IMG/VR virus record: IMGVR_UViG_3300045988_171666
Strand: one strand, 5' to 3'
Length of the DNA stretch: 49,666 bases
From: a virus
The notes beneath the pieces were generated by a model. That model saw only the letters and a list, made by a program, of their open reading frames with translations. It was not told the DNA's origin and made no database searches. The position numbers and the translations under genes were made by a program. Positions 7,891 through 26,601 of the stretch are shown here, piece by piece; position 1 is the first letter of the stretch, and each line of letters starts with the position of its first letter.

Positions 7891-7904
7891 GGGATCAAGA
7901 TTGC

Positions 7905-8186
7905 TTATAGGGTTACCGTCTCGTTAAATATCCTGTCGAAAGCGTTTTGCACCTTCGTATACGCGCTTATCCATTCCTCTCCGGTAAGGCTGTCCGGGGA
8001 TTCTTGGAAGAAAGAGAGCCTTTTGTTACGATCAGCGGACGCGTACCCGATACGGGTACCGGCATCGTATATGTAGGCATCTATATGCTGGAATGGCTCG
8101 CTTTCTTTACGGGACGCCTCTATCTTCACGAAACCCGTGGAAGATAGGGCTTCCGTCAAGGACTTATTGATTGTCGTTGTTTCCAT
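7905..8186 (-). CDS. Hypothetical tail-module protein
   Basis: 93-aa ORF, co-oriented and tightly packed between the large tail protein and the fibre. Confidence 0.45.
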   Translation of the reverse strand: METTTINKSLTEALSSTGFVKIEASRKESEPFQHIDAYIYDAGTRIGYASADRNKRLSFFQESPDSLTGEEWISAYTKVQNAFDRIFNETVTL

Positions 8187-8460
8187 TTTTCTTTGTTTTA
8201 GGGGTTAGTAACTCGTTCATGGCATTTTTCAAGGGGGCGATAAAGGATGATCCCATGATGATATCCTTGACGGACTCAGCCATAGGTCTCGGAACATCGA
8301 TAGCTTCCTTGCTGTAGTATATCTTCTTTCCGAAATCAGAGACAGCGATATCCGCCGTACGTCCATAGACCAAGTTTCCTACCTCTTTTGTCAAGTCTAT
8401 AACTACGGGATCGCCTTCTACCGTAGCGTTAATACTTACTTTACTGAAATCTACTTTCAT
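8164..8460 (-). CDS. Hypothetical tail-module protein
   Basis: 98-aa ORF, co-oriented, overlapping the next ORF by 23 nt. Confidence 0.45.
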   Translation of the reverse strand: MKVDFSKVSINATVEGDPVVIDLTKEVGNLVYGRTADIAVSDFGKKIYYSKEAIDVPRPMAESVKDIIMGSSFIAPLKNAMNELLTPKTKKNGNNDNQ

Positions 8461-8477
8461 GTTTTTATATATTAAAA

Positions 8478-12644: not shown

Positions 12645-12699
12645 TTGCGATTATTTTACCCCCAAAAGTATGGCTGTCGGATGGTCCGATAAAGGACAG

Positions 12700-14727: not shown

Positions 14728-14728
14728 C

Positions 14729-17700
14729 TTATTTGCCTCCTATCTTTTTGGATTTGTCCAATGTCTTCTGGGCGGCCTCGATATCGCTATAAACGATATA
14801 GGCCCTCATGCCTTTTGCTCTTAGTTCGGAAAATAGCATAAGTAGCTGTGTGAGTACTTTGAGTAATTCCGGATTATTACTTGAAACCATTACATTTTCT
14901 TCATCCGAGCGTCCATTGTATCCACCGTTGGCGAATCCGTTGACGGGAAGAGGATTTGTGCTTGTTCTTTGTCTTCGGATGGCATCCAAGGCTAGGATAT
15001 GGTTCATGGAAACCGGATCTTGTAATTGCCATGCCGGTGTAACGTATTCTTCTCGATGTACGGGACCAGCCACTTCAAGTATACCACCGTTGCCGGTGAA
15101 TCCTCCGTTGTACCAACCGGTGGAGTCTGATACAACCCGTTGTCCGGTTTGCGGCGTAGTGCTGTCATTAAGACCTGCATTTGCGGTAGATGTACTAGGT
15201 TTCTTGATAAGACCTTTCAAGGCACCGAAAGCGACGTTAATAAGTGCGATTTCACCTGCTGCTTTTGCCAATCCTAGAAAACCTAAGCTACCTATATCTT
15301 TAATGGTTCTTTCAGCGATAGCCATTACTGCAATCTGTCTTAATGTATCTAAGGTAAGAAGAAGAATATTATGCATAGCATCAGCAAATGTCGTTTCGGT
15401 ATCTGTTAAAGCTTGACCTAATATCATTCCTGCTTCACTACCAAAATCTTTCATTATGTTGAATTGCTTTTTTTTCTTTTCTTCCTCTTCTTCTCTAGCC
15501 TTCTCTTTTTCGTCCATTTCCTTTTTAACGAATCCTTGTAACAACTCATTCAATTTGTCATAGTGTTCTTTTGTCTGTTTTTCCTTCTTTTTGTTGATGT
15601 CTTTTTCTTTTTGGAGATTTTCCAGATAGGCTTGATACCCTTTGTCTAATAATTTGATCTTATAATCTAGTATTAATTGCTCTATTTTCTTTCTTTCGTC
15701 ACTGCCTATTTTATAGATAGCTAATTGTTTATTTAATTTTTCGAGTTCTAAAGCTTGAAGTTTTGTTTGATAATCATCATATAATCTTAGGCCCTCGGTA
15801 TAATCTTGTGTCAATTTTAGTTTCTTGGTTGCGATATAACGATCAACCTCTTTCAGCTTTGCGTCTGTGATTTTTTTCTCTTGCTCCACTGACAGTCCCG
15901 GGGTTATATCCGTTTTTTTTATTTTAGGGGCAATAACTTCTACTTCTGGCAACTCGTTTGCAGGTTTTTTAGGCAGAAGAGGAGAGTATTTCTGAGATAT
16001 CTTATCGAGGTTGGATGCTAATTGGTAAGTTTGCGTCATATAGCTCTGTAAACTTCCCCAGAAATCCTTATCGACCTTACCTCTGGCCCCATAGTAGTAG
16101 TCAATGTAAGAGATGACATCATCATATGTTTTTGTCCATGAGCGTCCGTTCTTTATCCCTTCATCTGTTATACGTTTTATGTCTCGAAGCATAGCGTCGG
16201 TAACGAATTGCCCCAGATTTGATTTTTCCCTCATTTGATCCATCAAATCGATTTGTTTATTTAAGGCGGTGGTCGTTACATCCTCCTTCTCTTTCTGCAT
16301 GGTTTTTAAAACTATGTTTTCATGCAACTTTTCATTAACTATTTCTAAAGCTTTTGCGATATCCTCGGTTGTACTTTGTTCTGTTAGTTGGTTTTCAAGA
16401 TATTTTCCATATCGAGAATTGATCTCATCGATTAATTCTTTTCGTTGCTTTGTTCCGGCGTTGCTTCGTTGGAGAGCGTCAAATAGGGTATAGGCTTCTG
16501 CCTGTTCAGTGGCGATCTCCTTGTTCATCTCTTTTAAAGCCCGGGCACTTTTTGTTGAATTATCCCATATTTTGTAAATGCCTACAGCTAAAGCGGTGAT
16601 TGCTACTCCAGCCGCAATAATTGGATTGAGTCCTAACGTCACTAAAAAACTACGCATGGCAATTGTCGCAGCTTTGATATTTCCTGTCAGTAGGGCTTTT
16701 GCCGCAGCTAGCGCATACTCGGAAGCTATGGAGGCACGGATAGCGATGGCGTTCGCTTTTTCTATCAATACAGCTTTTGAGGAGGCTTTACCTTTTAGTT
16801 CCGTCCAATATGTATTTAATTTTATGACCGCTGTATAAAGAGCTAGAGTTGAAGTTGAAAAAATAACTAATCCTGTATTCTTACTGATCCAGTCAGCCAT
16901 CAGAACTAGTTTTTTAGTCCAGTTCACGGTTTGATTCATTACGCTGATAATGGATGGATTGATCTTCTCCATTAACTCAATGCCAAGATCGTTAAGTTTG
17001 TTTTTTGCTTGTTGCATTTTAGCCGTGGCAGATTGGCTTTTTATCGTGGCCTGCTCTAAAGCGACGGATGTGCCGGTTACGGCTTTCGTATAATATTCTA
17101 CCTTATCCGCTTCATTGATAAGGACAGAGGCAACATTGTAGCCTTCCTCCCCGAACATCTTTTTGATAGCGGTAGCGTCCATTTGTTTTTTGCGTAGATT
17201 TTCCAGAGCCGTACTTAGCCCGACTATTTTGGGGTTTGTCTCGTCAGCTCCTGTTTGCAGGGTAAGGAAAAACTTTTTGAGTCCGGTACCGGCAATCTCA
17301 TCTTTGATACCTTTTTCTCCTAAAGTTTCAATGGTTCCAACTAGCTGCTCGATCGGGATCTTAGCGGAAGCGGCTGCGACACCACTTGTCTTTATAGCTT
17401 TGGTCTGGCTCTCTACGGCTGCTGCACCGAATTTACTTCCGGCGGCAAGTACATTTACATATCGAGCGGCTTGATCAGCTCCATCCCCATACTGGTTTAA
17501 TGCCAAGGTGACGGCATCTACCGCATCCGTAAGTTTCATGCCACTGGCAGAGGCGAGGATGAGCGTTTGCTCCGTCACTTCTGCTAAAGCCTCTTTATTT
17601 GCTAGCAATTCGGGTTTAGCGGAACCTACTAATTTATAAGCTTCCAGTATCTCATCAGCGGATTGGCGTATGCGGATACCTTCTTCGGTAACTGTAGTGG

Positions 17701-18325
17701 AAAGACGTTTTGCTTGATCTGTAAGCCACTCTATACTTTCATCATCTAGGCCTGTAAGAGCTTTTACATCGGCCTTGCTTTCTTCCAGTTTATTGCGGGC
17801 TTCACGGAATTTATTGAAAGTAAGAGTAATACCCGTAATGGCTGCCACTGCGGTACCAATGATTCCCATATATTTATTTACGAAATCTGTGGCACGTCCC
17901 CAGACCGAGGCTTGGCAACCGATCTCTACACGCATCTCTTGTTGGGCTAGTGCGGTTTCTTTGGAGATGCGTTTCAGCATTTCTAGCTTAGTGTTATATT
18001 CAGCGGTACCACGAGTTACTTTTTTCAGCTCCGTTGAAATTTTATTCTTTGTCTTTGTTAAGTCATTATAAGTGGCTCCACTTAGGTTCTTCAATACTCT
18101 TTCCGTATCAGCGACCTCTTGCTTATACTTTTGCATCTTCTGGGTTTGGGCGGTCAACTCACGTTCTATTTTCTTAGCCGCCTTGCTGTTACCTTCTCCG
18201 GCCGTCCGGAGATCAAGTAGCTTTTTCTCCAGTTCCCCGATTTTCGTCTCTAACTCCGATGCGCTAGTCATTGCGTCGGAGTTATCCAAGTATATCTTGA
18301 TGCTCCTGTTTAAATCTCCTGCCAT
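14729..18325 (-). CDS. Tail tape measure protein
   Basis: 1198 aa. Long coiled-coil K/E-rich stretches and central hydrophobic segments (LVIFSTSTLALYTAVIKL, LNPIIAAGVAITALAVGIYKI). TMP-like core (LVGSAKPELL, AAGSKFGAAAVES). Sits ahead of the tail-tip genes. Confidence 0.85.
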   Translation of the reverse strand: MAGDLNRSIKIYLDNSDAMTSASELETKIGELEKKLLDLRTAGEGNSKAAKKIERELTAQTQKMQKYKQEVADTERVLKNLSGATYNDLTKTKNKISTELKKVTRGTAEYNTKLEMLKRISKETALAQQEMRVEIGCQASVWGRATDFVNKYMGIIGTAVAAITGITLTFNKFREARNKLEESKADVKALTGLDDESIEWLTDQAKRLSTTVTEEGIRIRQSADEILEAYKLVGSAKPELLANKEALAEVTEQTLILASASGMKLTDAVDAVTLALNQYGDGADQAARYVNVLAAGSKFGAAAVESQTKAIKTSGVAAASAKIPIEQLVGTIETLGEKGIKDEIAGTGLKKFFLTLQTGADETNPKIVGLSTALENLRKKQMDATAIKKMFGEEGYNVASVLINEADKVEYYTKAVTGTSVALEQATIKSQSATAKMQQAKNKLNDLGIELMEKINPSIISVMNQTVNWTKKLVLMADWISKNTGLVIFSTSTLALYTAVIKLNTYWTELKGKASSKAVLIEKANAIAIRASIASEYALAAAKALLTGNIKAATIAMRSFLVTLGLNPIIAAGVAITALAVGIYKIWDNSTKSARALKEMNKEIATEQAEAYTLFDALQRSNAGTKQRKELIDEINSRYGKYLENQLTEQSTTEDIAKALEIVNEKLHENIVLKTMQKEKEDVTTTALNKQIDLMDQMREKSNLGQFVTDAMLRDIKRITDEGIKNGRSWTKTYDDVISYIDYYYGARGKVDKDFWGSLQSYMTQTYQLASNLDKISQKYSPLLPKKPANELPEVEVIAPKIKKTDITPGLSVEQEKKITDAKLKEVDRYIATKKLKLTQDYTEGLRLYDDYQTKLQALELEKLNKQLAIYKIGSDERKKIEQLILDYKIKLLDKGYQAYLENLQKEKDINKKKEKQTKEHYDKLNELLQGFVKKEMDEKEKAREEEEEKKKKQFNIMKDFGSEAGMILGQALTDTETTFADAMHNILLLTLDTLRQIAVMAIAERTIKDIGSLGFLGLAKAAGEIALINVAFGALKGLIKKPSTSTANAGLNDSTTPQTGQRVVSDSTGWYNGGFTGNGGILEVAGPVHREEYVTPAWQLQDPVSMNHILALDAIRRQRTSTNPLPVNGFANGGYNGRSDEENVMVSSNNPELLKVLTQLLMLFSELRAKGMRAYIVYSDIEAAQKTLDKSKKIGGK

Positions 18326-18328
18326 ATC

Positions 18329-18907
18329 CTAATCTTTATCAATGAAAATTCGTGATGCGTCGATTTGCATATCGGCGGCGTAGTCCGCTACGATGTCTGC
18401 CAGTTTGGGAAGATTCTTTTCGATGATGGGATCGAACCAACGGATCGGTTGGCGGTTGCCGGTTCCCATCAGGTAGAAAGAATCCGGGTTGGTCTTTTTC
18501 AGCTTCCCGTATTTGTCCGTCCATTTAGAGCCGCCCCGGAAACCACCTTGGCCCCGTCCGGCTCCCCTATGGATATAGATACCTTCACGGGCGAAACTGA
18601 ATCCCACTCGTTCGGTCTCTCCTTTACTTTTGTAAATTCTGGGTTCTAGGGAGTCCGATAGGAACTCATCTTTCTGGACAAGCAAGGCGATATTCCCTTT
18701 CAAGTCTTGGATCACGTAGCCCATCCATTCCTTTACCTCAGAATTAAATTGTCTCAATTTCTCCTTATCCAGCCTACGTTCATACCGGGCGATCCGGCTG
18801 GTTGACTCTAGCGAGATCTCGAAGGGTAATCCTTCCCTCGCTCCGATCAGGGAGTTCCTGCGTTTAGGCGTGCGCATCTGCTCGCTCAATCTTTTCATGA
18901 CTCCCAT
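18329..18907 (-). CDS. Hypothetical tail-module protein
   Basis: 192-aa ORF directly upstream of the tape measure gene. Confidence 0.45.
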   Translation of the reverse strand: MGVMKRLSEQMRTPKRRNSLIGAREGLPFEISLESTSRIARYERRLDKEKLRQFNSEVKEWMGYVIQDLKGNIALLVQKDEFLSDSLEPRIYKSKGETERVGFSFAREGIYIHRGAGRGQGGFRGGSKWTDKYGKLKKTNPDSFYLMGTGNRQPIRWFDPIIEKNLPKLADIVADYAADMQIDASRIFIDKD

Positions 18908-18908
18908 A

Positions 18909-19415
18909 TCATACCCACATTGATTTGTCGATAGAGAAGGGGATAGGCTTTCTTAGGTTGAAGCCTAACATCACCCCATAGAAATTATCTCCCATGGGAC
19001 CTATGCCACGAAAGGTCATGCTGTTTAGCTCTAGGAACTGAAGCCCGTTACGTTCCTCGTTCCAGTCGAGCATCATCCGGCAGACGATCTGCATGAGAAG
19101 ATCCTTGCATTCCGCTTTCGCAAAGTGAATCCCGTCGATATTCCCGGCCTCGCATTGCTTTAATAGGGCGATAAAATATTGTGGGATATTTACGAGGTTG
19201 TCATTGCTAAGCCAAGAAAAATCCGAGTTAAGCCCGTCGATGGCGACTAATACATGATCCCGGATAGAGGAGATACGTTCTTCCAGATCAGAGATTTCCT
19301 CTACCTCGTCACTACGGAGGAAATGACATTCCCCGTCCGTATGACCGATAGCGGCTAGATGCCTAGCGATCCATTCCGAATACTCAAAGTGATTGTATAT
19401 GTCCATAACATCCAA
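18909..19415 (-). CDS. Hypothetical tail-module protein
   Basis: 168-aa ORF. The first codon in the ORF track is TTG; the first ATG is at 19406. Confidence 0.45.
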   Translation of the reverse strand: MDVMDIYNHFEYSEWIARHLAAIGHTDGECHFLRSDEVEEISDLEERISSIRDHVLVAIDGLNSDFSWLSNDNLVNIPQYFIALLKQCEAGNIDGIHFAKAECKDLLMQIVCRMMLDWNEERNGLQFLELNSMTFRGIGPMGDNFYGVMLGFNLRKPIPFSIDKSMWV

Positions 19416-19424
19416 TTTATAGAC

Positions 19425-19450
19425 ACAAAAAAAGCCCCCCGAAGGGAGCT
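19425..19450 (-). terminator. Intrinsic terminator closing the island-1 operon
   Basis: Minus strand reads GCTCCC-TTCG-GGGGGC followed by TTTTTTT, about 30 nt after the stop of 19477..19758. Confidence 0.75.
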
Positions 19451-19476
19451 TTTAAAGGACATATGAAAACTACTAA

Positions 19477-19758
19477 TCACCTTTTATACCTACTGATATA
19501 ATCAGTCAAGCGTTCAGCTTGCAATTTTGTTATCTTTGTAAATGAAATCTTCTTCTTAAGTGTCTCAAAACCAAATTCATCTATAAACTTACCAATTGAA
19601 ACATTTAAAAACATAGAAGGCAAAGAAGACACACCTTCCATATCGATGGTAATCTTGTCCGAAGAATTCATATTCTCTCTGATTATATCATAGAGACTAC
19701 TTCCTGCCATAGGAAAATCCTTTCCTTCCATCACGTCATAAAGTTTAATTGTACACAT
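19477..19758 (-). CDS. STAS-like (DUF4325-type) small protein
   Basis: 93 aa. The pattern KITIDMEGVSSLPSMFLNVSIGKFIDEFG resembles the STAS / anti-sigma-antagonist core. AGAGGA precedes the ATG, 20 nt after the GHKL gene stop. Confidence 0.6.
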   Translation of the reverse strand: MCTIKLYDVMEGKDFPMAGSSLYDIIRENMNSSDKITIDMEGVSSLPSMFLNVSIGKFIDEFGFETLKKKISFTKITKLQAERLTDYISRYKR

Positions 19759-19778
19759 AGTATCCTCTTTTTATTTAG

Positions 19779-20657
19779 TTAAAAATCAAACTCGTCTAAA
19801 ATTTCTTCTTCTTCCAAATTTCCTAAATATAATTCGAAATATATCAACGTCCCATTAAAATCAAAATCAATATTGTCAATTTTAACTTCATGCTTCTTTA
19901 ATAAACGAGCTGTATTGCAAATTATTCTTACTGCATCAGCGCACGATAATATATTATCTAGGCCTTTTCCTTTATTATGAACCTTAGATCCAACTGTAAA
20001 ATCAACCTCTATAGACTTTTTCAAAGCATCGCTATCTGATATTATAGTGGAATCAAAATTTCTGACAGATTTTGATATACCTTTCCCGAAATCACAAATA
20101 GCTACACGCAAGACTTCATCCTGTCCTTCATATTTAATAAATGAAAAAGCATTACCATTTGCATCAGCATGATCAAAAACATTATAAAATGCTTCTACTA
20201 TGCTAAGCGAAATTATACTTAAGTCTTTACCTCTAAAGAAATTCTTTTTAAAATATTGTTCTACCTCTATTGCATATGCGTCTTTTTGATTCTCAACTAT
20301 ACGCCATAAATTAAATATATTATCACTTTCAGAATCCACATGATCTTTACTGTAATTCCAATACTCTCTAAATTTAAGATCTTCAAAAAACAGCTTCTCT
20401 ATAGATTCATTTGATATCCGTATAGTATGTTCTTCTACATTAACTAAAAATTCAATCAAACATGCAATTGTAACAACATGAATAGGCTGAAATAATTCAG
20501 GAGACAATGTATCCTTAAAAACAAAAGTTATTTGTTTTTGATAATTTTCTTTTTTATATTCATTCCTGATAGTAGCGATTTGTCTCAGCCAATCCGCTCT
20601 TTTCAAAGAGTTAAAATATATGTTCGTATTATCCATGTTTTGAAGAACATTATTCAT
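19779..20657 (-). CDS. GHKL (HATPase_c-type) ATPase / Ser-protein-kinase-like protein with an unknown N-terminal domain
   Basis: 292 aa. Bergerat-fold motifs occur in order: N box EAFYNVFDHA, G1 DFGKGI, G2 NKGKGLDNI, then NGTLIYFEL. No DHp/His phosphotransfer region is visible. Confidence 0.7.
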   Translation of the reverse strand: MNNVLQNMDNTNIYFNSLKRADWLRQIATIRNEYKKENYQKQITFVFKDTLSPELFQPIHVVTIACLIEFLVNVEEHTIRISNESIEKLFFEDLKFREYWNYSKDHVDSESDNIFNLWRIVENQKDAYAIEVEQYFKKNFFRGKDLSIISLSIVEAFYNVFDHADANGNAFSFIKYEGQDEVLRVAICDFGKGISKSVRNFDSTIISDSDALKKSIEVDFTVGSKVHNKGKGLDNILSCADAVRIICNTARLLKKHEVKIDNIDFDFNGTLIYFELYLGNLEEEEILDEFDF

Positions 20658-20699
20658 ATATACAACAATTTTTATCTGCTGAATATTATCAGTTTCTAT

Positions 20700-20840
20700 T
20701 TAAAAAAGCAAAATAAATAATAGCAAAACAATCAACACACCAGCTATAACCTTGCTTATATGGTTTTTGCTGTGACGCACTTCATTCAGAGCCGCACCGA
20801 TCAGCATAACAAAACCTAATATAGCTACAAATGTCAGCAT
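20700..20840 (-). CDS. Small two-TM membrane protein (46 aa, below the ORF-track cutoff)
   Basis: Manual translation gives MLTFVAILGFVMLIGAALNEVRHSKNHISKVIAGVLIVLLLFILLF. Co-oriented within the operon. Confidence 0.35.
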   Translation of the reverse strand: MLTFVAILGFVMLIGAALNEVRHSKNHISKVIAGVLIVLLLFILLF

Positions 20841-20853
20841 ACTGCAAATATAA

Positions 20854-20985
20854 TCATTCTTTTGGAAGAAGCAAGCGTAACAGCTCCTCCAATCTCATGG
20901 CGGCATGCATTCGTTCTTCTTTACTATATTGTCCGTTTACATCGGTAACGATGTCGAGTAGGCGCAGGGCTTCTTGGAGTTTCAT
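20854..20985 (-). CDS. Small helical protein (43 aa, below the ORF-track cutoff)
   Basis: Manual translation gives MKLQEALRLLDIVTDVNGQYSKEERMHAAMRLEELLRLLLPKE. Its ATG overlaps the upstream stop (ATGA). Confidence 0.3.
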   Translation of the reverse strand: MKLQEALRLLDIVTDVNGQYSKEERMHAAMRLEELLRLLLPKE

Positions 20986-21227
20986 TTCGGTTCCTCCTTT
21001 CCTTCAAACAAACATAATCTTTTTTTCAGAAAACTTAGAGCCGCAATAAGCGACAATGATTCTTTTTCAGAAAGTACACCCGGGGCATCATGCTCGCATG
21101 CAATGAAAGTGATAGCGCTGTCAATGGCCTTAACATCTTCTTCTAACCCACCTTTATCATTTTCCTGCCAATATCTGATCGCATCCAGCATTAGGTTTGA
21201 TATACATATATCTTCCAGTCTAATCAT
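20982..21227 (-). CDS. Hypothetical 81-aa protein
   Basis: ORF overlaps the upstream gene by 8 nt and the downstream ORF by 4 nt, suggesting translational coupling. Confidence 0.45.
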   Translation of the reverse strand: MIRLEDICISNLMLDAIRYWQENDKGGLEEDVKAIDSAITFIACEHDAPGVLSEKESLSLIAALSFLKKRLCLFEGKEEPK

Positions 21228-21462
21228 TTGGGCCTCCTTTCTTCGCTGAGTTATAAACGAACCAAGCTACGATGACCAGTGGTAAGAACACTGGAGACAG
21301 CATAGCCAATAAAGCTACCGTGTACATTTTAGCCTCGTAAATGGATTTACAGGAGGCGATACCAAGAGGCAACAGGTTGTAGAACTTCTGGACGGTTGTC
21401 CAAGAAAAGAGATCATGTTCCCGGCTCCGGGAAGATGATACGGTTAATGAATTTGTTTTCAT
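21220..21462 (-). CDS. Small membrane protein, paralog A
   Basis: 80 aa with a hydrophobic core (MYTVALLAMLSPVFLPLVIVAWFVY). A close paralog lies at 30240..30512. Confidence 0.55.
   Translation of the reverse strand: MKTNSLTVSSSRSREHDLFSWTTVQKFYNLLPLGIASCKSIYEAKMYTVALLAMLSPVFLPLVIVAWFVYNSAKKGGPND
21233..21410 (-). repeat. Dispersed direct repeat, copy A (partner 30250-30427)
   Basis: 178 nt colinear with the partner, offset exactly 9,017 nt, no indels. My manual count gives about 21 mismatches. A 49-nt stretch is perfectly identical (21321-21369 = 30338-30386). Confidence 0.9.
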
Positions 21463-21532
21463 AACGTTGTGACTTTAGCGTATGGGCAGAAAAAAAGCGG
21501 CTGCCATTTCCACTCGCTAAAGTCACAACGTT
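21463..21532 (-). promoter_or_regulatory. Perfect 18-bp stem hairpin abutting the start codon of 21220..21462 (candidate translational sequestor)
   Basis: aacgttgtgactttagcg (21463-21480) is the exact reverse complement of cgctaaagtcacaacgtt (21515-21532). In the mRNA sense the 3' arm ends directly at the ATG (21462). Confidence 0.6.
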
Positions 21533-21662
21533 ACGTTCCCGAAGGTACGAAAATTGTAGGAAAGGCAACCGCCAATATTTTTATACAACAAAGTAAGGCA
21601 TAAAAAAGCCCTGACTATCAAAAATATGTCCGAGCAATAACCGATGCTCAACGAGAACGACA

Positions 21663-21680
21663 AACGTTCGTGACTTTAGC
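21663..21680 (-). promoter_or_regulatory. Third copy of the stem sequence (candidate anti-sequestor)
   Basis: aacgttcgtgactttagc matches the 21463-21480 arm except for one inserted c, so in the RNA it can pair with the same partner arm. Confidence 0.45.
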
Positions 21681-21684
21681 TGAT

Positions 21685-21718
21685 GCAAATATGGTAAAAG
21701 TTTTTGAGATGGCAATGC
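21685..21718. promoter_or_regulatory. Repeated promoter module, copy 1
   Basis: gcaaatatggtaaaagtttttgagatggcaatgc. The minus strand reads TTGCC..N..TATTTGC (Bacteroidetes -33/-7-like), upstream of the structured leader. Confidence 0.5.
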
Positions 21719-21732
21719 TAATTAAAAGAAAT

Positions 21733-22482
21733 CTACCAATCTTCCTCCTCTGTTTTTAGCTGAGACACTCCATTGAATATGTTATTTTCAATCTGATATA
21801 GCCTATATAGCTGTTCTAGTAGGACTTGTGTTCTTACATTTATGTAATGGGCATCTGTTCGTTTACTTTTAGTAAGTCCTAGTCCATCGGAAACAAACGA
21901 TGTTAAATAAAAATCCCTAGTCAAGTAAGTTTCTATAGGGGCTTCGGCTTCATTTAAATCTCCTTTCTCTACATAAATATCATATAAATCTATTTTGTAC
22001 CTATTATCTCGTACTTGGATTTTCAATGTAAAATGTATCGGTACACTTCCTACATATTTACCCATTAACCCCATACTGAAAATTAAATAACCTTCAGTCA
22101 TACCTTTGCAAACAAGGATACCTGTTTCTTTATCTTGCATTTGCAAAATATTTTTAGCACTAACGAAAACATCAACCAATGATTGATAGATATTGTCGTA
22201 TAGTGTTCCTTTACCAAGCCCTTCAACTTGTCTGACGTAAGAAATAGTAAAACTTCCATCATCATTAAAAGGTACTGAAGACAATATTTCAATCATATCT
22301 TCCTTTTTTAATTTGGGTAACTTCTTATCTTCTATCTTCCTTTTTTCAAAGTTTGAATATTTTTGGTAGATAAATTCTTTAAATTCTTCTTGCGACATAG
22401 GATTTCTTACAATTTCGAAATCTTGTGCAAAAGCGTTTGTGCTAAGTAGTGTAACAAATAAGATACAGATTAGGTGTTTCAT
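21733..22482 (-). CDS. Secreted protein, DUF4468-like
   Basis: ATG at 22482 gives the signal peptide MKHLICILFVTLLSTNAFAQ; the track start at 22515 is TTG. The core GSFTISYVRQVEGLGKGTLYDNIYQSLVDVFVSAKNILQMQDKETGILVCKG fits the DUF4468 pattern. Confidence 0.55.
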   Translation of the reverse strand: MKHLICILFVTLLSTNAFAQDFEIVRNPMSQEEFKEFIYQKYSNFEKRKIEDKKLPKLKKEDMIEILSSVPFNDDGSFTISYVRQVEGLGKGTLYDNIYQSLVDVFVSAKNILQMQDKETGILVCKGMTEGYLIFSMGLMGKYVGSVPIHFTLKIQVRDNRYKIDLYDIYVEKGDLNEAEAPIETYLTRDFYLTSFVSDGLGLTKSKRTDAHYINVRTQVLLEQLYRLYQIENNIFNGVSQLKTEEEDW

Positions 22483-22510
22483 GTTTAATTTTGTATTGAT
22501 TATTATGGAT

Positions 22511-22566
22511 CGCAAGTAGGGAAAAGTTTTTGATATGGCAAAGAAACCAAGTATCTTTGTGGAAAA
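22511..22566. promoter_or_regulatory. Repeated promoter module, copy 2 (apparently bidirectional)
   Basis: Plus strand has TTTG (22529-22532), N19, then TATCTTTG (22552-22559), 17 nt before the ATG at 22577. Minus strand has TTTGCC..TACTTGC ahead of the ATG at 22482. Confidence 0.6.
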
Positions 22567-22576
22567 GAATTGCGAT

Positions 22577-22750
22577 ATGAATACAACAGATTACGATATC
22601 TATAAAATCAGACAAGAGCAGCTGTCGTTAAGCCGTCGTATCACTCGCATAGAAAATATGATACACGCAATCAGACCTACTCGATTAATCTACGTATTAG
22701 GTTTCCTATCGGGTTTCCTGCTAAACTATCTACTACGGCACCTGTTATAG
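22577..22750 (+). CDS. Small protein with a C-terminal TM helix (57 aa)
   Basis: MNTTDYDIYKIRQEQL...LIYVLGFLSGFLLNYLL, preceded by a consensus-like promoter. Its 3' end overlaps 22677..23108 convergently by 74 nt. Confidence 0.35.
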   Translation: MNTTDYDIYKIRQEQLSLSRRITRIENMIHAIRPTRLIYVLGFLSGFLLNYLLRHLL

Positions 22751-23108
22751 CGGCCAAGACCCACCAAGCGAATTTAAACAAGGAGACCCAGCCGTTAGCC
22801 ACGTCAAGTTTTAATTTTTTATCTTCCAGTTCTTCTTTATCTGCTGACTTTTGCAGATGTTTTTTCAATCCAATAGTAGCAATACTTTCTCCTTCATTGG
22901 TTAGTATCAGCCAATATTCATCCTTTCCCATATATTCGATCGCATGATACCGCTTCATCAGCGTCTCCTTCATATACTCATAATCCATCGTGTGATTATC
23001 ATAGTCCGGAAGGCCATTATAAAATTGGTCTATATTACAGCGACCAGCATTTTGTTTCACCGTGGCAAGTATCTTATCCGCTATCTCGTATTGTTTTTCT
23101 GTAAACAT
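22677..23108 (-). CDS. Hypothetical protein with a C-terminal TM helix
   Basis: 143 aa from the ATG at 23108 (the track start at 23114 is TTG). C-terminal sequence is WVSLFKFAWWVLAAITGAVV. Confidence 0.5.
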   Translation of the reverse strand: MFTEKQYEIADKILATVKQNAGRCNIDQFYNGLPDYDNHTMDYEYMKETLMKRYHAIEYMGKDEYWLILTNEGESIATIGLKKHLQKSADKEELEDKKLKLDVANGWVSLFKFAWWVLAAITGAVVDSLAGNPIGNLIRRLIE

Positions 23109-23237
23109 TATCAAAAGAGAATAGCCTGTATTTCTGAGGGTGCATCCTCATACTCTACAGGCCATTAAAAAACCAATTGGCATATCTTTTCCGAAGGTCA
23201 CCGCATGCACTCGGTTCTACTCGGTTTCTAATCTTTT

Positions 23238-23295
23238 CGTAAAGATGGGGAAAGTTTTTGGTAACACAATGCTTTCCACGTATTTTTGTGGAAAA
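23238..23295. promoter_or_regulatory. Repeated promoter module, copy 3
   Basis: Plus strand has TTTG (23257-23260), N20, then TATTTTTG (23281-23288) followed by TGGAAAA, 17 nt before the ATG at 23306. This is the same layout as copy 2. Confidence 0.6.
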
Positions 23296-23305
23296 TGTTA
23301 TTCCT

Positions 23306-23488
23306 ATGAAATCAATAATCAATTATTTTCGCAAACGTAAAGAGGAACGTCTTCGTGAACGTTGTGTTAAGTATGCCATTAAAGCCCACGAAGGACGGGA
23401 TAAAGGTTTTACTGTCAGCGATTCAGCCCAAGACATTGAATTGTATATAAAAGACGGTATGACATCCCAAGGAAAAAGGCATCAATAA
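23306..23488 (+). CDS. Small basic protein (60 aa)
   Basis: MKSIINYFRKRKEERLRERCVKYAIKAHEG.... The ATG is at the conserved distance from the promoter module; the track start at 23258 is TTG and lies inside the promoter. Confidence 0.35.
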   Translation: MKSIINYFRKRKEERLRERCVKYAIKAHEGRDKGFTVSDSAQDIELYIKDGMTSQGKRHQ

Positions 23489-23823
23489 GGTTTCTTATAA
23501 GGCAAAACAACAGGTAACTTGAACCTTATTCGGTTCGCCTCATTTCCATTGCTTCCTTCTTTGGTTGAAGCGCCTATACCTACTACACTGGCTAATACAC
23601 CGATCTTTCCGCTATTTTCCTTTATTTCAGAGGTGCTGACTTGTAGATCAAACTCTACTGATGAAACAATAACACCTTCACTATTGTCTATCGTCTCAAA
23701 GTTTGTATTCTCTGCATAGCATGGATTTACCACTACTCCTTTATCTTTCAATTCATCATCTAATTCATAAACAGCTTCCGAAAGCTGGGTTATAGCGGAT
23801 TTAATAAATTCTTTTAGTTCCAT
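23482..23823 (-). CDS. trypco2-like (trypsin-co-occurring domain 2) small protein
   Basis: 113 aa from the MELKEF start. It follows the pattern N-terminal helix (MELKEFIKSAITQLSEAV), then VSSVEFDLQVS, a Gly-rich segment (GKIGVLASVVGIGAS), then RIRFKLPVVLP. Confidence 0.45.
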   Translation of the reverse strand: MELKEFIKSAITQLSEAVYELDDELKDKGVVVNPCYAENTNFETIDNSEGVIVSSVEFDLQVSTSEIKENSGKIGVLASVVGIGASTKEGSNGNEANRIRFKLPVVLPYKKPY

Positions 23824-24026
23824 AAACAACAAAGCCCGCATTTCAGACCGGCCATGATCCTACTTTGCGGGCTTTTCCTTCAATGAAGTTTATCTTTTTC
23901 AAATATCTCGCATGGCCTCAATATAGTACAAGAAAATACGGAATGGTTTAAAGATATACTTTTATTTTGAGTTAACAAAAAATCTTTGTAAGGATATTAC
24001 AGGGATTGGATTATTTTAATATACTT

Positions 24027-24440
24027 TTATACCAAGTTCAATTTAGTAATCCGGCGACTGATGTCTTTCAGCGCCATATCCAGAATAGCCAGTTCTTCCT
24101 GTGTGAATTTGCAAATTTTACCGTGTACGCTGTTCCCGTTTAATCGTTGGTAGAACCAAGAGGATGATTTCCCGAAATAATCTTTGGCTAGATTAGAGAC
24201 GGACAGGTATGGTAAAACGGGACTCAGTCGCTCACGAATAGTTAGCTGCTCCTTGATGTCCGCGATCTCTTTATGGATGTTTTCAAAGTCATTTTGCACA
24301 CCTGCGGTAAGCAGTTCGGTTTCCTTTTCATCCATGCTATCCAACAGATCGGTAATTTGTCGGTCTATGGTAGGGCGGTCATTCTCCGGGGATTTTTTCC
24401 AAAGTTCCTTTAGTTCAAAAAAACGCTTTACTTTATCCAT
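24027..24440 (-). CDS. DUF5053-like protein (Bacteroides mobile-element family)
   Basis: 137 aa. The C-terminal pattern LSVSNLAKDYFGKSSSWFYQRLNGNSVHGKICKFTQEELAILDMALKDISRRI is typical of that family as I recall it. Confidence 0.5.
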   Translation of the reverse strand: MDKVKRFFELKELWKKSPENDRPTIDRQITDLLDSMDEKETELLTAGVQNDFENIHKEIADIKEQLTIRERLSPVLPYLSVSNLAKDYFGKSSSWFYQRLNGNSVHGKICKFTQEELAILDMALKDISRRITKLNLV

Positions 24441-24477
24441 CTTATTCTGTTTTTTGAGTTACACATGAAAGGGAAAC

Positions 24478-24500
24478 TCCCCCTCTGGCCTGGAGGGGGA
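24478..24500 (-). terminator. 8-bp GC-rich hairpin after the 57-aa ORF (weak terminator candidate)
   Basis: tccccctc (24478-24485) pairs with gaggggga (24493-24500). The downstream minus-strand sequence is only moderately T-rich. Confidence 0.3.
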
Positions 24501-24512
24501 GAACCTTTCTGG

Positions 24513-24686
24513 TCAATAATACTTTCCAAGTTCCTTAAGTTCTTTCTCAAGTCTCTTGATCTCTTTATCAACCACCGCTTTCATGAATTTGCTTCTCGAA
24601 GTCAGTTCATGATACTTGCGGAGATAAAAAAGGAGATCTTTTTCTGCCTCTTCTATCCGGGCTTTTAGCCCATCGTCACTATGCAT
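24513..24686 (-). CDS. Small coiled-coil protein (57 aa, below the ORF-track cutoff)
   Basis: Manual translation gives MHSDDGLKARIEEAEKDLLFYLRKYHELTSRSKFMKAVVDKEIKRLEKELKELGKYY. A consensus promoter lies directly upstream. Confidence 0.4.
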   Translation of the reverse strand: MHSDDGLKARIEEAEKDLLFYLRKYHELTSRSKFMKAVVDKEIKRLEKELKELGKYY

Positions 24687-24710
24687 AGAGCTCTTGTCTT
24701 AATGACATCA

Positions 24711-24764
24711 CAAAGATAATAAAAATATTATCAATGGCAAACGTTTGGTAATATTTTTATTATC
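24711..24764 (-). promoter_or_regulatory. Consensus Bacteroidetes-type promoter embedded in a perfect 16-bp inverted repeat (operator candidate)
   Basis: Minus strand has TTTG, N19, then TATCTTTG (24711-24718), 24 nt before the ATG at 24686. The arms gataataaaaatatta (24715-24730) and taatatttttattatc (24749-24764) are exact complements. Confidence 0.6.
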
Positions 24765-24868
24765 ATAGTATCTGGATTGGAGATAATAACAAAACCGCTC
24801 CACCTTCACAGGCAAAGCGGCTGTCCATTACTAATCTAAAAATCTAATACCATGAAAAACACCTATTA

Positions 24869-25669
24869 CTACATATCTTGTTTCTTTTTCTCCTCTTTTT
24901 CGATCGCTACTTCTAGGGTATAGAGAGCGTCGTATAAAAGGGATTGTTTTACCTGTTCTTTCTTGGTCACGTCTCCGCTGGCCATCTCATCCACGATGCG
25001 TTGTTGCGTGTCGAATATATCCAAAGGGGCTTCATTCCCTCCGGAGGAGAATACCCGGGAGAACTTTGCTTGTATGAAATTCATGCTACCTAGGTAGTAC
25101 CAGAACATGACTGTCTTTACGATCGGCTCTACATTCCGGAACCAAGCCGGATCACCGTCCTCACGTATGGAGAATGAGCCGTCTTTCCAGATTATGGATA
25201 GGAAGTTATCCAATGCCTCGAAGAAATCCTGTCTCATCCGCTGTTGCCAAGTCTGTAGCATGATGAACTGTCCGTAGCTGATATTGGTCAGGCCGTCTTC
25301 CGGGCCGTATAACTCGATATCTTTGTCTTTGTAGACGGGGAATGGGTTACGGGTTAAGCGGATATCCAGCTCGATCCCTTTTTCTGTCTCTTGGAATAAG
25401 AAATCAAAGATGGTGCTCAACGCCGCCAGTTGCTCGGCCGTGATCCATATACGATTTTTGGGAAGGGAAACGGCGTAACCGGTTCCATTGGCTTTCTGGT
25501 ATCGCCGGATTCTCGCGGACAGGCAAAACAATAGCATCTTGACCTTGGCTTCTTGGGCCGTACTTTTCGAGTTCAAAATATTGGCGAGAAAGCAAAGCTG
25601 TTCCGTTGTCATCTCATCCCATGTGCCGGGCACGAGGTAATCGATATCTTTGATCGTTATTTTTCTCAT
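24869..25669 (-). CDS. Hypothetical virion-module protein
   Basis: 266-aa ORF, 4-nt overlap with the upstream gene, GC-rich like the structural genes. Confidence 0.5.
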   Translation of the reverse strand: MRKITIKDIDYLVPGTWDEMTTEQLCFLANILNSKSTAQEAKVKMLLFCLSARIRRYQKANGTGYAVSLPKNRIWITAEQLAALSTIFDFLFQETEKGIELDIRLTRNPFPVYKDKDIELYGPEDGLTNISYGQFIMLQTWQQRMRQDFFEALDNFLSIIWKDGSFSIREDGDPAWFRNVEPIVKTVMFWYYLGSMNFIQAKFSRVFSSGGNEAPLDIFDTQQRIVDEMASGDVTKKEQVKQSLLYDALYTLEVAIEKEEKKKQDM

Positions 25670-26601
25670 AATACGAAAATATGTTTGTCCTTGGAATTAA
25701 AGTCGTTCTTGATAGGAGCGGGGAGGCCTAGTTCCGGGGCGTAAACTTTCATGTAATCCTCGATTACCGCTTCTAGTGACGTTACCTGCTCGGCGTAGAA
25801 ATTACCGTTGTCCGTGGGATCGGAATACAGCGGATAGATCACGGGCTTAAACTCCAGCTGGCCGGCCGCCGTACGTTGTACCCGGGTGGTTTGGCTGGTA
25901 TGGAGCTTGGCTACGTACATGGCGAGCCATACCCGGATATAATCAATCAGCTTGATCCGGAGCGGATCATCCACGCCGGTTCTTAAGGTGTCTTTTAAGC
26001 TCTTGTCAAGAGTGGTCCCGATCCAGCGGCATAGCTTCATCTCCAGTGTATCGAGTAGGGGACGGAACTTTTCGAAGGTCAACCGGGAATAATCGATATT
26101 CACCTTACCGTAATATTGGAACTCCCGGGCGGAATTAAGGTAGTGGCCGTTGGCTTGGTTCTTGTAATAGCGGCTTTCTTTCCATTCCGGATAGTCGTTC
26201 TCGTGGCTTCCGAGATGGTCCAGTAGCTTATCCAAGTTATTCCATCCCCGTTCCTGCATGCTCTCTTCCGATCGGGCGATCTTTTGATCGCTGGCTACGG
26301 TGAACTTATCGTTCCGGCTTACCGTATGCCCGCTGTCACCGATCAAGACCCCTAGCTCCGGACTGGCTAGCGCTACGGCCAATGGTCCCAGTGTCCGGCT
26401 GGCGAGCGTCTTGATCGTAAGGATATCTTCCGTTAACGGCTCTCGATACAGCCGATCGACCAAGGCTTCCCCGAGGTAGGGGACGATATATCGATCGAAA
26501 GCGTCTTGAAGATAAGGCTCCAATATCTCGAACTTAAATGAGGCGTTTACCTTGACGGTATGCCTCAAATCATCTATCGTTTGTAGGAATGGCTGTGTCA
26601 T
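25666..26601 (-). CDS. Hypothetical virion-module protein
   Basis: 311-aa ORF immediately after the portal candidate. Confidence 0.5.
   Translation of the reverse strand: MTQPFLQTIDDLRHTVKVNASFKFEILEPYLQDAFDRYIVPYLGEALVDRLYREPLTEDILTIKTLASRTLGPLAVALASPELGVLIGDSGHTVSRNDKFTVASDQKIARSEESMQERGWNNLDKLLDHLGSHENDYPEWKESRYYKNQANGHYLNSAREFQYYGKVNIDYSRLTFEKFRPLLDTLEMKLCRWIGTTLDKSLKDTLRTGVDDPLRIKLIDYIRVWLAMYVAKLHTSQTTRVQRTAAGQLEFKPVIYPLYSDPTDNGNFYAEQVTSLEAVIEDYMKVYAPELGLPAPIKNDFNSKDKHIFVL

What the first reader, a model, noticed from the sequence alone, without database searches (positions are those of the whole stretch)
19477..20657. Phage-borne GHKL ATPase/kinase plus STAS-like (DUF4325-type) gene pair: candidate partner-switch or anti-phage module
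Two tightly linked minus-strand genes sit in a visibly AT-rich insert within the virion/tail gene block. They are separated by 20 nt, with AGAGGA before the second ATG, and are followed by a strong intrinsic terminator (19425-19450). The 292-aa protein has an unrecognisable N-terminal half of about 140 aa. This is followed by all Bergerat-fold motifs in order (EAFYNVFDHA, DFGKGI, NKGKGLDNI, NGTLIYFEL). That is the SpoIIAB/RsbW/histidine-kinase ATP-binding domain, but no His-phosphotransfer domain is visible. The 93-aa protein fits the STAS-like pattern (KITIDMEGVSSLPSMFLNVSIGKFIDEFG). This resembles the phospho-acceptor loop of SpoIIAA/RsbV antagonists. No sigma factor, nuclease or other output domain is encoded nearby, so the output is unknown. 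As a moron in a temperate phage, the pair could be a superinfection-exclusion or abortive-infection switch. It could also be a device that rewires host sigma/anti-sigma signalling. I cannot match it to any named defence system.
Basis: partly seen in the sequence, partly recalled or inferred. Interest (0 to 1): 0.8.

Follow-up and report, generated by a model that had tools for sequence, protein, structure and literature searches.

The report
Phage-borne CapK/VapK-like kinase–STAS switch
A Parabacteroides distasonis prophage carries an optional two-gene cassette, a Ser-kinase and its small STAS substrate, related to the recently described DNA-damage-sensing CapKS/VapKSC immune switches but lacking both of their known outputs, so what it controls is unknown.

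Summary
In detail: two co-oriented genes of 292 aa and 93 aa, 20 nt apart, at about 30% GC in a roughly 50% GC phage. The small protein is a clear DUF4325/STAS protein (58 bits). The large one is a SpoIIAB-type GHKL kinase, shown by family-level Pfam hits and Foldseek top matches, with a degenerate STAS-like N-terminal domain.

Both proteins are homologous to VapK and VapS of VapKSC (hhalign 96.8% and 96.5%) and have the CapK/CapS architecture (Chambers et al., EMBO J 2026). Window Ser48 aligns with the VapS phospho-site Ser48.

The window pair differs from both systems. S has no wHTH or C-terminal inhibitory helix, there is no VapC or downstream immune operon, and no third gene is conserved across 87 loci. 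These "KS-only" kinases carry an acidic, aromatic-tipped C-terminal tail that VapK lacks.

The pair is a 1.33-kb presence/absence cassette in near-identical phages. In relatives lacking it, a neighbouring part of the same variable region carries Cas13b and a CRISPR array.

Verdict: a new variant of a known kind. It is probably a phospho-switch on Ser48, plausibly triggered by ssDNA, with an unidentified output. Interest is moderate (0.55).

The parts
19465..20793 (-). 1.33-kb accessory cassette (5' leader, K gene, S gene). It is present or absent among near-identical phages.
   Evidence: blastn of the window against 'empty' relatives: window 20794 matches L143 5849 and window 19464 matches L143 5952, so 1329 bp are replaced by about 100 bp. 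Junctions were read. About half of 38 related IMG/VR contigs lack K and S. GC is about 0.30.
19779..20657 (-). K gene: 292-aa CapK/VapK-like Ser kinase (STAS-like domain, GHKL domain, acidic tail).
   Evidence: ORF. phrog_3364 E=3.5e-24. 29 of 37 family members hit HATPase_c_2. hhalign to Rahnella VapK: 96.8%, E=3e-10, over 225 columns. AF2 model pLDDT 86.6.
20292..20657 (-). K residues 1-122: degenerate STAS-like putative sensor domain (beta-alpha-beta-alpha-beta-alpha-beta). Invariant W23, P58-x-H60 at a helix N-terminus, and N116-L-W-R119.
   Evidence: Conservation. AF2 pLDDT 85.8. The best whole-domain superpositions are STAS proteins: 2ka5 at TM 0.51 and SpoIIAA 1h4y at 0.46-0.49, but the Foldseek E-values are not significant. 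Sub-threshold Pfam STAS hits in 4 of 9 distant homologs. From residue 40 on it aligns with the N-terminal region of Rahnella VapK; the published VapK family is described as STAS-GHKL.
19833..20291 (-). K residues 123-275: SpoIIAB-type GHKL (Bergerat-fold) kinase domain. N box E155/N159/H163, G1 D189xGxG, G2 N228xGxG, G269-T-L.
   Evidence: The Foldseek PDB top 5 are all SpoIIAB (E 1.4e-6 to 1.9e-4, TMt 0.70-0.73). Invariant motifs. Pfam HATPase_c_2 at family level.
19782..19832 (-). K residues 276-292: acidic C-terminal tail tipped by aromatic residues (LGNLEEEEILDEFDF). It is a hallmark of KS-only kinases and is absent from VapK.
   Evidence: Net charge of the last 20 aa is -4 to -9 in all 37 family members. 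The tail is also present in Firmicutes and Proteobacteria homologs (EEEEEFEW, DEEEDFEW, EREVFEW). 91 of 113 full-length representatives have it. It is absent in the 3 VapK proteins of complete vapKSC loci. pLDDT is low there.
19477..19758 (-). S gene: 93-aa minimal STAS (DUF4325) protein, a CapS/VapS homolog without a wHTH domain or C-terminal extension.
   Evidence: Pfam PF14213 E=7.5e-16, 58 bits against a cutoff of 23. Family profile against PDB 9z7o 'Escherichia VapS': E=9.6e-10. hhalign to Rahnella VapS: 96.5%.
19615..19617 (-). Codon of Ser48 (TCT) in the invariant P47-S48-M49-F50-x-N52 motif: the predicted phospho-acceptor.
   Evidence: Invariant in 32 homologs, while S44 and S45 vary. 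It aligns with the Ser of VapS 'FASPFFNYSIG', taken to be the phospho-site Ser48 of PMC13373217. This assumes an 18-residue tag offset in the PDB chain, and Ser48 is also the position in native Rahnella VapS.
19763..19768 (-). AGAGGA ribosome-binding-site-like motif before the S start codon.
   Evidence: Read directly from the sequence.
19430..19453 (-). Intrinsic terminator-like hairpin plus T-run that ends the transcription unit. It belongs to the phage backbone and is shared with phages lacking the cassette.
   Evidence: 10-bp stem. The same sequence is present in L143 about 5958-5990.
20700..20840 (-). 46-aa hydrophobic ORF immediately upstream. Its 3' end was replaced by the cassette insertion (left junction).
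   Evidence: In empty phages this ORF has a different C-terminus and runs directly into the terminator.

Best explanation
The pair is an autonomous, horizontally mobile two-gene kinase-substrate switch of the CapK/CapS-VapK/VapS kind. It is carried as optional cargo in the accessory region of a temperate Parabacteroides distasonis phage.

Shown here:
- K is a STAS-like domain fused to a SpoIIAB-type GHKL Ser-kinase domain.
- S is a minimal DUF4325/STAS protein.
- Both are homologs of VapK and VapS.
- The two genes are almost always adjacent and co-diverge.
- No third gene is conserved next to them.
- The cassette is dispensable for the phage.

Inferred from homology to the experimentally characterised CapKS and VapKSC systems:
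- K phosphorylates S on the invariant Ser48 at the N-terminus of STAS helix 2.
- K is activated by a signal bound between its STAS-like and GHKL domains. ssDNA from DNA damage or phage replication is the precedent.
- Phosphorylation changes what S is bound to.

Because S has neither a DNA-binding domain nor a cis-encoded toxin partner, the output must be one of two things. It could be a host or phage protein bound in trans by unphosphorylated S, as with single-domain STAS regulators. Or it could be a property of K itself, for which the family-specific acidic, aromatic-tipped C-terminal tail is the best candidate element.

The most likely biological role is a prophage-encoded stress or superinfection response that benefits the lysogen.
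For: - S: Pfam DUF4325, 58 bits.
- K: 29 of 37 family members hit HATPase_c_2. The Foldseek top 5 are all SpoIIAB, with TMt 0.70-0.73.
- Catalytic residues: invariant N-box, G1 and G2 residues.
- Homology to the named systems: the S-family profile hits PDB 9z7o VapS at E=9.6e-10. hhalign gives K family vs Rahnella VapK 96.8%, E=3e-10, over 225 columns spanning both domains, and S family vs VapS 96.5%.
- Phospho-site: Ser48 is invariant and aligns with VapS Ser48.
- Published mechanism: CapK/VapK architecture and mechanism in PMC13373217.
- Adjacency: 130 of 137 loci have S, most immediately downstream on the same strand, and most exceptions lie at contig ends.
- No third gene: only K and S recur in 87 non-redundant loci.
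- Co-divergence: K and S distances correlate at r=0.89, Mantel 0/2000.
- Optional cargo: presence/absence cassette with defined breakpoints.
- Context: related phages that lack the pair carry Cas13b and a CRISPR array in a nearby part of the same variable region. The window has a tyrosine recombinase. The host is P. distasonis.
- Spread: the same two-gene layout occurs at prophage ends in Firmicutes and Proteobacteria and in Francisella phage KIRK.
Against: - Nothing here shows kinase activity, S phosphorylation, ssDNA binding, toxicity or phage protection.
- The window protein alone is below the Pfam HATPase_c_2 threshold (17.4 bits against 27.4).
- The STAS assignment of the N-terminal domain is weak: Foldseek E>=0.09, TM about 0.5, and sub-threshold Pfam hits.
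- The aromatic residue that stacks on ssDNA in CapK (W68) and VapK (F54) could not be mapped to a conserved aromatic in this family (alignment).
- No PADLOC model matches either protein.
- Neighbours in bacterial genomes are only partly defence-like, and many are housekeeping genes.
- The output is unidentified.
Confidence: 0.6

Rival explanations
1. Classical partner-switching module. K is an anti-sigma factor/kinase like SpoIIAB or RsbW that holds a host or phage sigma factor. S is the anti-anti-sigma factor that releases it, so the phage rewires host transcription.
For: The best solved-structure matches of K are SpoIIAB. There is a weak NCBIfam spIIAB hit. JGI annotates homologs as 'anti-sigma regulatory factor (Ser/Thr protein kinase)'. 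Bacteroidota encode many ECF sigma factors (general knowledge).
Against: - The S family matches VapS at E~1e-9 but SpoIIAA only at E=1.1.
- K aligns with VapK across both domains, whereas SpoIIAB has no N-terminal STAS-like domain.
- Sigma-70 domains occur in only 2 of 148 nearest neighbours.
- No conserved third gene was found, so no sigma factor or PP2C phosphatase is linked.
Confidence: 0.12
2. Kinase toxin with a STAS antitoxin, acting as an abortive-infection pair. Activated K phosphorylates essential host or phage proteins, and S acts as a buffering pseudo-substrate or inhibitor until it is exhausted.
For: The autonomous two-gene, overlapping or tightly spaced layout at variable loci and prophage ends is typical of toxin-antitoxin and abortive-infection modules. 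The relative VapKSC is a toxin-antitoxin-type defence. Some neighbours are defence or toxin-antitoxin genes such as Fic/SoFic, AriA-like and AbiEii-type AAA_21.
Against: No toxicity data exist. In the characterised relatives the kinase is the sensor, not the effector. SpoIIAB-type kinases are normally highly specific for their STAS partner (established knowledge).
Confidence: 0.15
3. Phage counter-defence decoy. The phage-borne K/S pair interferes with host CapKS/VapKSC-type immunity, for example S soaking up a host kinase or K pre-phosphorylating a host STAS protein.
For: Phages often carry homologs of host immune components (general knowledge). The cassette sits in a phage accessory region.
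Against: The same pair occurs at ordinary chromosomal sites with no phage genes among the called neighbours, for example P. chinchillae between an Nramp gene and a two-component system. K and S co-diverge as a matched pair, which argues for a self-contained function. No cognate host VapKSC or CapKS system was looked for or found.
Confidence: 0.06

Closest known systems
VapKSC (VapK kinase, VapS STAS antitoxin, VapC PIN toxin; Chambers et al., EMBO J 2026, PMC13373217)
   Same: - K has the same length and STAS-like plus GHKL architecture, with no HTH domain, and is homologous to VapK (hhalign 96.8%).
- S is homologous to VapS, with the same S-x-F-x-N-x-S-I-G motif and an aligned phospho-serine.
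- Gene order is K then S, tightly coupled.
   Different: - No vapC/PIN gene here or in any of 87 non-redundant KS-only loci.
- S is 91-103 aa and lacks the VapS C-terminal helix (residues 94-116) that inhibits VapC.
- K carries an acidic, aromatic-tipped tail that VapK lacks.
- VapK scores only 33.7 bits against the window family HMM, against 60-179 bits for other KS-only kinases.
CapK/CapS (DNA-damage-activated kinase plus STAS-wHTH repressor upstream of CBASS, Bub, Thoeris and similar operons; same paper)
   Same: It is a GHKL kinase with an internal STAS domain, followed by a STAS substrate gene, and a conserved Ser at the N-terminus of STAS helix 2 is the switch.
   Different: - K has no N-terminal HTH domain and S has no wHTH domain (93 aa in total).
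- No immune operon follows. The pair is followed by a terminator and then by two unannotated ORFs and the tape-measure gene.
- No CapK or CapS sequence was compared directly here.
SpoIIAB/SpoIIAA and RsbW/RsbV partner-switching modules
   Same: The kinase-domain fold is the same (top Foldseek hits), with the 'N-x-x-x-H' N box. S has a STAS fold with a Ser at the helix-2 N-cap.
   Different: K has an extra N-terminal STAS-like domain. No sigma factor or PP2C phosphatase is linked. S is only marginally similar to SpoIIAA in sequence (E=1.1).
PIN.4 VapC group 'transcriptionally coupled to DUF4325 genes' (Matelska et al., NAR 2017, PMC5499597)
   Same: It involves a DUF4325 STAS-like partner protein.
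   Different: That group is presumably the vapSC part of VapKSC. No PIN gene is present here.

Membership tests
GHKL / HATPase_c_2 (SpoIIAB-type Ser kinases) | Passes the curated Pfam profile threshold | tested here: inconclusive
   The window protein scores 17.4 bits against a gathering score of 27.4. 29 of 37 family members hit at E<=0.01, best 6e-8, and several homologs carry a precomputed PF13581 assignment.
GHKL / HATPase_c_2 (SpoIIAB-type Ser kinases) | Bergerat-fold motifs in order (N box E/N, G1 DxGxG, G2 GxG) and conserved | tested here: met
   E155, N159, D162, H163, D189, G191, N228 and G230 are invariant, and G193 and G232 at least 90% conserved, in 37 sequences.
GHKL / HATPase_c_2 (SpoIIAB-type Ser kinases) | Three-dimensional fold matches solved members | tested here: met
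   AF2 model pLDDT 86.6. The Foldseek top 5 are SpoIIAB chains, E 1.4e-6 to 1.9e-4, TMt 0.70-0.73.
DUF4325 (PF14213, STAS-like) | Passes the curated Pfam threshold | tested here: met
   E=7.5e-16, 58 bits against 23. Nearly all listed homologs carry PF14213.
VapKSC | VapK-type kinase (STAS-GHKL, no HTH) homologous to VapK | tested here: met
   hhalign 96.8%, E=3e-10, 225 columns over both domains against Rahnella VapK from a complete vapKSC locus. hmmsearch gives 33.7 bits.
VapKSC | VapS-type STAS protein with a conserved Ser/Thr phospho-site | tested here: met
   Profile against PDB 9z7o VapS: E=9.6e-10. hhalign 96.5%. Ser48 is invariant and aligns with VapS Ser48.
VapKSC | VapS C-terminal helix (residues 94-116) that blocks the VapC active site | tested here: not met
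   S ends at residue 93, at the end of the STAS fold. In the hhalign alignment VapS continues for 20 more residues. KS-only S proteins are 91-103 aa, against 115-117 aa in vapKSC loci.
VapKSC | Adjacent vapC (PIN nuclease toxin) gene | tested here: not met
   The S gene is followed by a terminator, two unannotated ORFs and the tape-measure gene. No recurrent third gene in 87 loci. No PIN gene in distant KS-only loci, whereas L138, L139 and L141 show one.
CapKS | CapK N-terminal HTH domain | tested here: not met
   No HTH family was found in Pfam scans of K or of 37 homologs. The AF2 model starts directly with the beta-alpha-beta STAS-like domain at residue 10.
CapKS | CapS C-terminal wHTH DNA-binding domain | tested here: not met
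   S is 93 aa, and the DUF4325 match covers residues 19-77. There is no room for a wHTH domain and no hit to one.
CapKS | Located immediately upstream of a regulated immune operon | tested here: not met
   A terminator directly follows S. The downstream genes are two unannotated ORFs and the tape-measure gene. Neighbours across loci are heterogeneous.
CapKS / VapKSC (mechanism) | Kinase activated by ssDNA through a conserved aromatic residue in the STAS/GHKL groove (CapK W68, VapK F54) | not testable with these tools
   The alignment to VapK does not place a conserved aromatic at the presumed equivalent position. The invariant residues W23, H60 and W118-R119 are candidates. This needs AF3 with ssDNA, or biochemistry.
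SpoIIAB/SpoIIAA-type partner switch | Linked sigma factor target and PP2C phosphatase | tested here: not met
   No conserved third gene. Sigma70_r2/r4 domains occur in 2 of 148 neighbours, and no PP2C appears among the 25 most frequent neighbour families, which are all that one search lists.

The most novel reading that the evidence does not exclude
KS-only modules are a third, effector-less output mode of the ssDNA-sensing K-S switch, in which the effector is built into the kinase. The acidic, aromatic-tipped C-terminal tail resembles the C-terminal tip of SSB (DDDIPF), a resemblance recalled from memory rather than tested. Under this reading the tail is held in K's own nucleic-acid-binding groove, or by unphosphorylated S. 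On activation it is released to dock onto replication or repair proteins of the host or of an invading phage, giving the lysogen superinfection exclusion without a dedicated toxin.
Probability: 0.12. Interest if true: 0.8.

Novelty: new variant of a known kind. Interest (0 to 1): 0.55.

Why it matters
CapKS and VapKSC were described only in 2026 as the first kinase-based DNA-damage sensors that control bacterial immunity. Each has an obvious output, either a wHTH repressor or a PIN toxin.

The family found here is large: at least 671 clusters at 50% identity with E<=1e-10. It spans Bacteroidota, Firmicutes and Proteobacteria and is frequently phage-borne, yet it has neither output. Finding its target would therefore reveal a new way in which this sensor module is wired.

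The natural presence/absence polymorphism among near-identical P. distasonis prophages gives a ready-made isogenic comparison in an abundant human gut commensal. In relatives lacking the pair, the same variable region carries Cas13b, which marks this region as a phage-borne defence hotspot.

Tried and rejected
- Megablast of window 14000-26000 against INPHARED phages: no match.
- PADLOC models on both proteins: only a spurious 12-bit DrmA hit, so this is not a system catalogued by 2023.
- K-family profile against PDB sequences: only insignificant hits such as cGMP-dependent kinase (E=0.03). Fold comparison was needed.
- hhalign of the K N-terminal domain against the DUF4325 family, to test whether the two STAS-like domains are detectably related: no signal (0.3%).
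- Foldseek of the N-terminal domain alone: no significant E-value. STAS proteins appear only at TM about 0.5, so I treat this as weak support only.
- Search for a conserved third gene by all-vs-all clustering of neighbours in 87 loci: none. The 21-locus and 11-locus clusters appear, from their example members, to be antisense shadow ORFs inside K and S.
- PIN genes in distant KS-only loci: none.
- Exact 35-mer of the K gene in GTDB representative genomes: no match. The host was identified instead from cluster members.
- Sigma-70 promoter scan: not above shuffles (10 sites against 8.3 expected), and it does not cover Bacteroidota promoters. The cassette's promoter is undetermined.
- Mapping of CapK W68 / VapK F54 onto the window protein: ambiguous.
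Full report
**Observation**

The two minus-strand ORFs are exactly where stated: 20657..19779 (292 aa, here K) and 19758..19477 (93 aa, here S). They are 20 nt apart, with AGAGGA 5 nt upstream of the S start codon. A 10-bp-stem hairpin with a T-run lies at 19453..19430. GC is 0.29-0.30 across 19501-20500, against 0.45-0.55 in the flanks. Two ORFs without family matches (168 and 192 aa) and then the tape-measure gene (phrog_28, E=4e-45) follow downstream. The window also encodes a tyrosine recombinase at 212-1387. Cluster members identical or near-identical to K and S are annotated in Parabacteroides distasonis and occur on at least 1000 contigs.

**What the proteins are**

S is an unambiguous DUF4325/STAS-like protein (PF14213, 58 bits against a cutoff of 23).

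K alone is below threshold for HATPase_c_2 (17.4 against 27.4 bits), but three lines of evidence place it in that family:
- It belongs to a family of at least 181 detectable homologs, and 29 of 37 sampled members hit HATPase_c_2 (best E=6e-8).
- The N-box (E155, N159, H163), G1 (D189xGxG) and G2 (N228xGxG) residues are invariant or nearly so.
- A confident AF2 model (pLDDT 86.6, pTM 0.87) has SpoIIAB chains as its five best PDB matches (E 1.4e-6 to 1.9e-4, TMt 0.70-0.73).

The N-terminal ~120 residues form a beta-alpha-beta-alpha-beta-alpha-beta domain with invariant W23, P58-x-H60 and N-L-W-R119.

**The link to a named system**

A profile of the S family hits one solved structure, 9z7o 'Escherichia VapS', at E=9.6e-10, while SpoIIAA scores only E=1.1. 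That led to Chambers et al., EMBO J 2026 (PMC13373217). The paper describes two systems:
- CapK (HTH-STAS-GHKL) is activated by ssDNA and phosphorylates Ser54 of the STAS-wHTH repressor CapS. This de-represses a downstream immune operon.
- VapK (STAS-GHKL) phosphorylates Ser48 of the STAS antitoxin VapS. This releases the PIN toxin VapC, and the system protects against phage Bas42.

I fetched a complete vapK-vapS-vapC operon from Rahnella bruchi (L138). The K family aligns to that VapK at 96.8% probability (E=3e-10, 225 columns, window residues 40-275 against VapK 37-282). The S family aligns to that VapS at 96.5% (E=8.5e-10). The only invariant serine of S, Ser48 in P-S-M-F-x-N, aligns with the VapS serine in 'ASPFFN'. 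That is taken to be the published phospho-site Ser48, given an 18-residue tag offset in the PDB chain, and it is also residue 48 of native Rahnella VapS.

Independent support for a STAS fold is weak but consistent. The best whole-domain superpositions are TM1081 (TM 0.51) and SpoIIAA (0.46-0.49), without a significant Foldseek E-value. Pfam STAS hits are sub-threshold in 4 of 9 distant homologs (best 20.5 bits against 22.6).

**What is different**

- S is a bare STAS domain. It has no wHTH domain, unlike CapS, and no C-terminal helix, unlike VapS, where residues 94-116 are required to inhibit VapC.
- No vapC gene and no immune operon follows.
- Across 137 fetched loci, 130 have S, and most of those have it immediately downstream on the same strand. 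Most exceptions lie at contig ends.
- After de-replication to 87 loci, K (84 loci) and S (79 loci) are the only recurrent genes.
- Distant versions in Firmicutes prophages, Sideroxydans, Paenibacillus and a betaproteobacterium have the same two overlapping genes and no PIN gene.
- Francisella phage KIRK has a 293-aa protein plus a DUF4325 protein next to cI and the integrase.
- K and S divergences are tightly correlated (r=0.89; Mantel 0/2000).
- The 148 nearest neighbours in about 40 bacterial genomes are heterogeneous. Some are defence- or mobile-flavoured (Fic/SoFic, AriA-like, RhuM, NERD, integrases, PADLOC candidate families), many are housekeeping genes, and sigma-factor domains occur in only 2. 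No baseline was computed, so enrichment is not established.
- The family is large: 3,044 representatives at 50% identity with E<=1e-3 and 671 with E<=1e-10, almost all about 280-310 aa.
- VapK is a more distant relative (33.7 bits) than other KS-only kinases (60-179 bits).

**A family-specific feature**

All 37 aligned K proteins, and the distant KS-only kinases, end in an acidic tail tipped by aromatic residues. Examples are EEEEILDEFDF, EEEEEFEW, DEEEDFEW and EREVFEW, and the net charge of the last 20 residues is -4 to -9. Of 113 full-length representatives, 91 have the tail.

The three kinases from complete vapKSC loci (L138, L139, L141) lack the tail, and their S proteins are 115-117 aa rather than 91-103 aa. 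The tail has low pLDDT. Its resemblance to the SSB C-terminal tip is a recollection, not a test. It suggests either auto-inhibition by ssDNA mimicry or partner docking.

**Phage context**

- Of 38 IMG/VR contigs carrying the downstream 168-aa gene (34 of them at 98-100% identity), about half lack K and S.
- The breakpoints are sharp. Window 19465-20793 is replaced by about 100 bp, and in empty phages a small hydrophobic ORF runs straight into the same terminator.
- The pair is therefore a dispensable 1.33-kb moron inserted just upstream of a backbone terminator.
- Further upstream in the same low-GC region, window ~21730-24030 is also swapped out in relatives.
- In L143 and L163, phages that lack the pair, that swapped segment carries Cas13b (NF038190, 641.7 bits against a cutoff of 150) plus a CRISPR array of 36-nt repeats and 30-nt spacers.
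- This marks the region as a defence-cargo hotspot and supports, by association only, a conflict-related role for the pair.

**Mechanism**

Shown: the architecture, the homology, the autonomy of the module, and its status as optional cargo.

Inferred from the characterised relatives: K phosphorylates Ser48 of S when activated, with ssDNA as the precedent trigger, and this switches S between binding partners. Since neither known output is present, the target is either encoded in trans or intrinsic to K (the tail).

Rivals:
- An anti-sigma partner switch. Against it are the lack of a linked sigma factor or PP2C phosphatase and the much better match of S to VapS than to SpoIIAA.
- A kinase toxin with a STAS antitoxin. 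There are no data either way.
- An anti-defence decoy. Against it are the pair's occurrence at ordinary chromosomal sites and its matched co-divergence.

**Novelty and verdict**

The only paper in the searchable library that combines STAS, GHKL and anti-phage immunity is the CapKS/VapKSC paper and its preprint. A term search of its main text for 'prophage', 'two-gene' and 'phage-encoded' found no description of two-gene or phage-borne versions. Its vapKSC survey kept only loci that contain vapC. PADLOC 2.0 has no model for either protein.

This is a new variant of a known kind. The interpretation as a GHKL-STAS phospho-switch and moron is right, the sigma-rewiring idea is unlikely, and the system is no longer unnameable. 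Interest is 0.55.

Noticed in passing
L143:904-4250 and L163:513-3900 (IMG/VR relatives of the window phage). The corresponding window slot is about 21730-24030.: Near-identical phages that lack the K-S pair carry a 1003-aa Cas13b (NCBIfam VI_Cas13b, 641.7 bits against a cutoff of 150). It is followed by a CRISPR array of 4-6 repeats of 36 nt (GTTGTATTAGCCTTTAGTTTGAAAGGTAGAAACAAC) with 30-nt spacers. This is a phage-borne type VI-B system in a temperate Parabacteroides phage. Spacer targets were not examined.
   Followed up: partly
window 20794-24030: The whole low-GC stretch between the upstream phage genes (unannotated, presumed head module) and the tail genes is a mosaic accessory region. 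Window 21730-24030 encodes a 260-aa protein with a hydrophobic N-terminus (phrog_4002, unknown function) and 145-aa and 119-aa ORFs with no family match. Relatives carry different cargo in this segment.
   Followed up: partly
L082:8858-9691 (Paenibacillus ferrarius): The K gene is followed by two tandem paralogous S genes (101 and 109 aa), a duplicated STAS substrate.
   Followed up: no
L057:8332-9165 (Rikenellaceae MAG) and L055:7612-8825 (Bacteroidales UBA1715): In L057 the C-terminal half of K and S lie in one open frame. This is either a K-S fusion or a frameshift or assembly artefact. In L055 the S gene lies upstream of K (reversed order).
   Followed up: no
Francisella phage vB_FhiM_KIRK, Fhv_0046/0047 (PMC7924643, table): A 293-aa hypothetical protein followed by a 112-aa DUF4325 protein sits between the cI repressor and the integrase. 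By size and order it looks like another KS-only pair in a gammaproteobacterial temperate phage.
   Followed up: no
cluster 2 (P0002, P0197 and others; P. distasonis): Many P. distasonis records hold 170-240-aa versions of K that are 98% identical over 77% of its length. These could be truncated alleles, alternative start calls or decaying copies of the cassette.
   Followed up: no
BFVD entry J7KH07: A single viral protein of 233 aa matches the full K model over 242 alignment columns, which must include part of the N-terminal domain as well as the GHKL domain (E=4e-10, TMt 0.73). It has no name in the tables at hand.
   Followed up: no
window 1789-14727: Very large ORFs (2033, 1388 and 675 aa) lie downstream of the tape-measure gene, presumably tail fibre or baseplate proteins. 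They were not annotated here.
   Followed up: no
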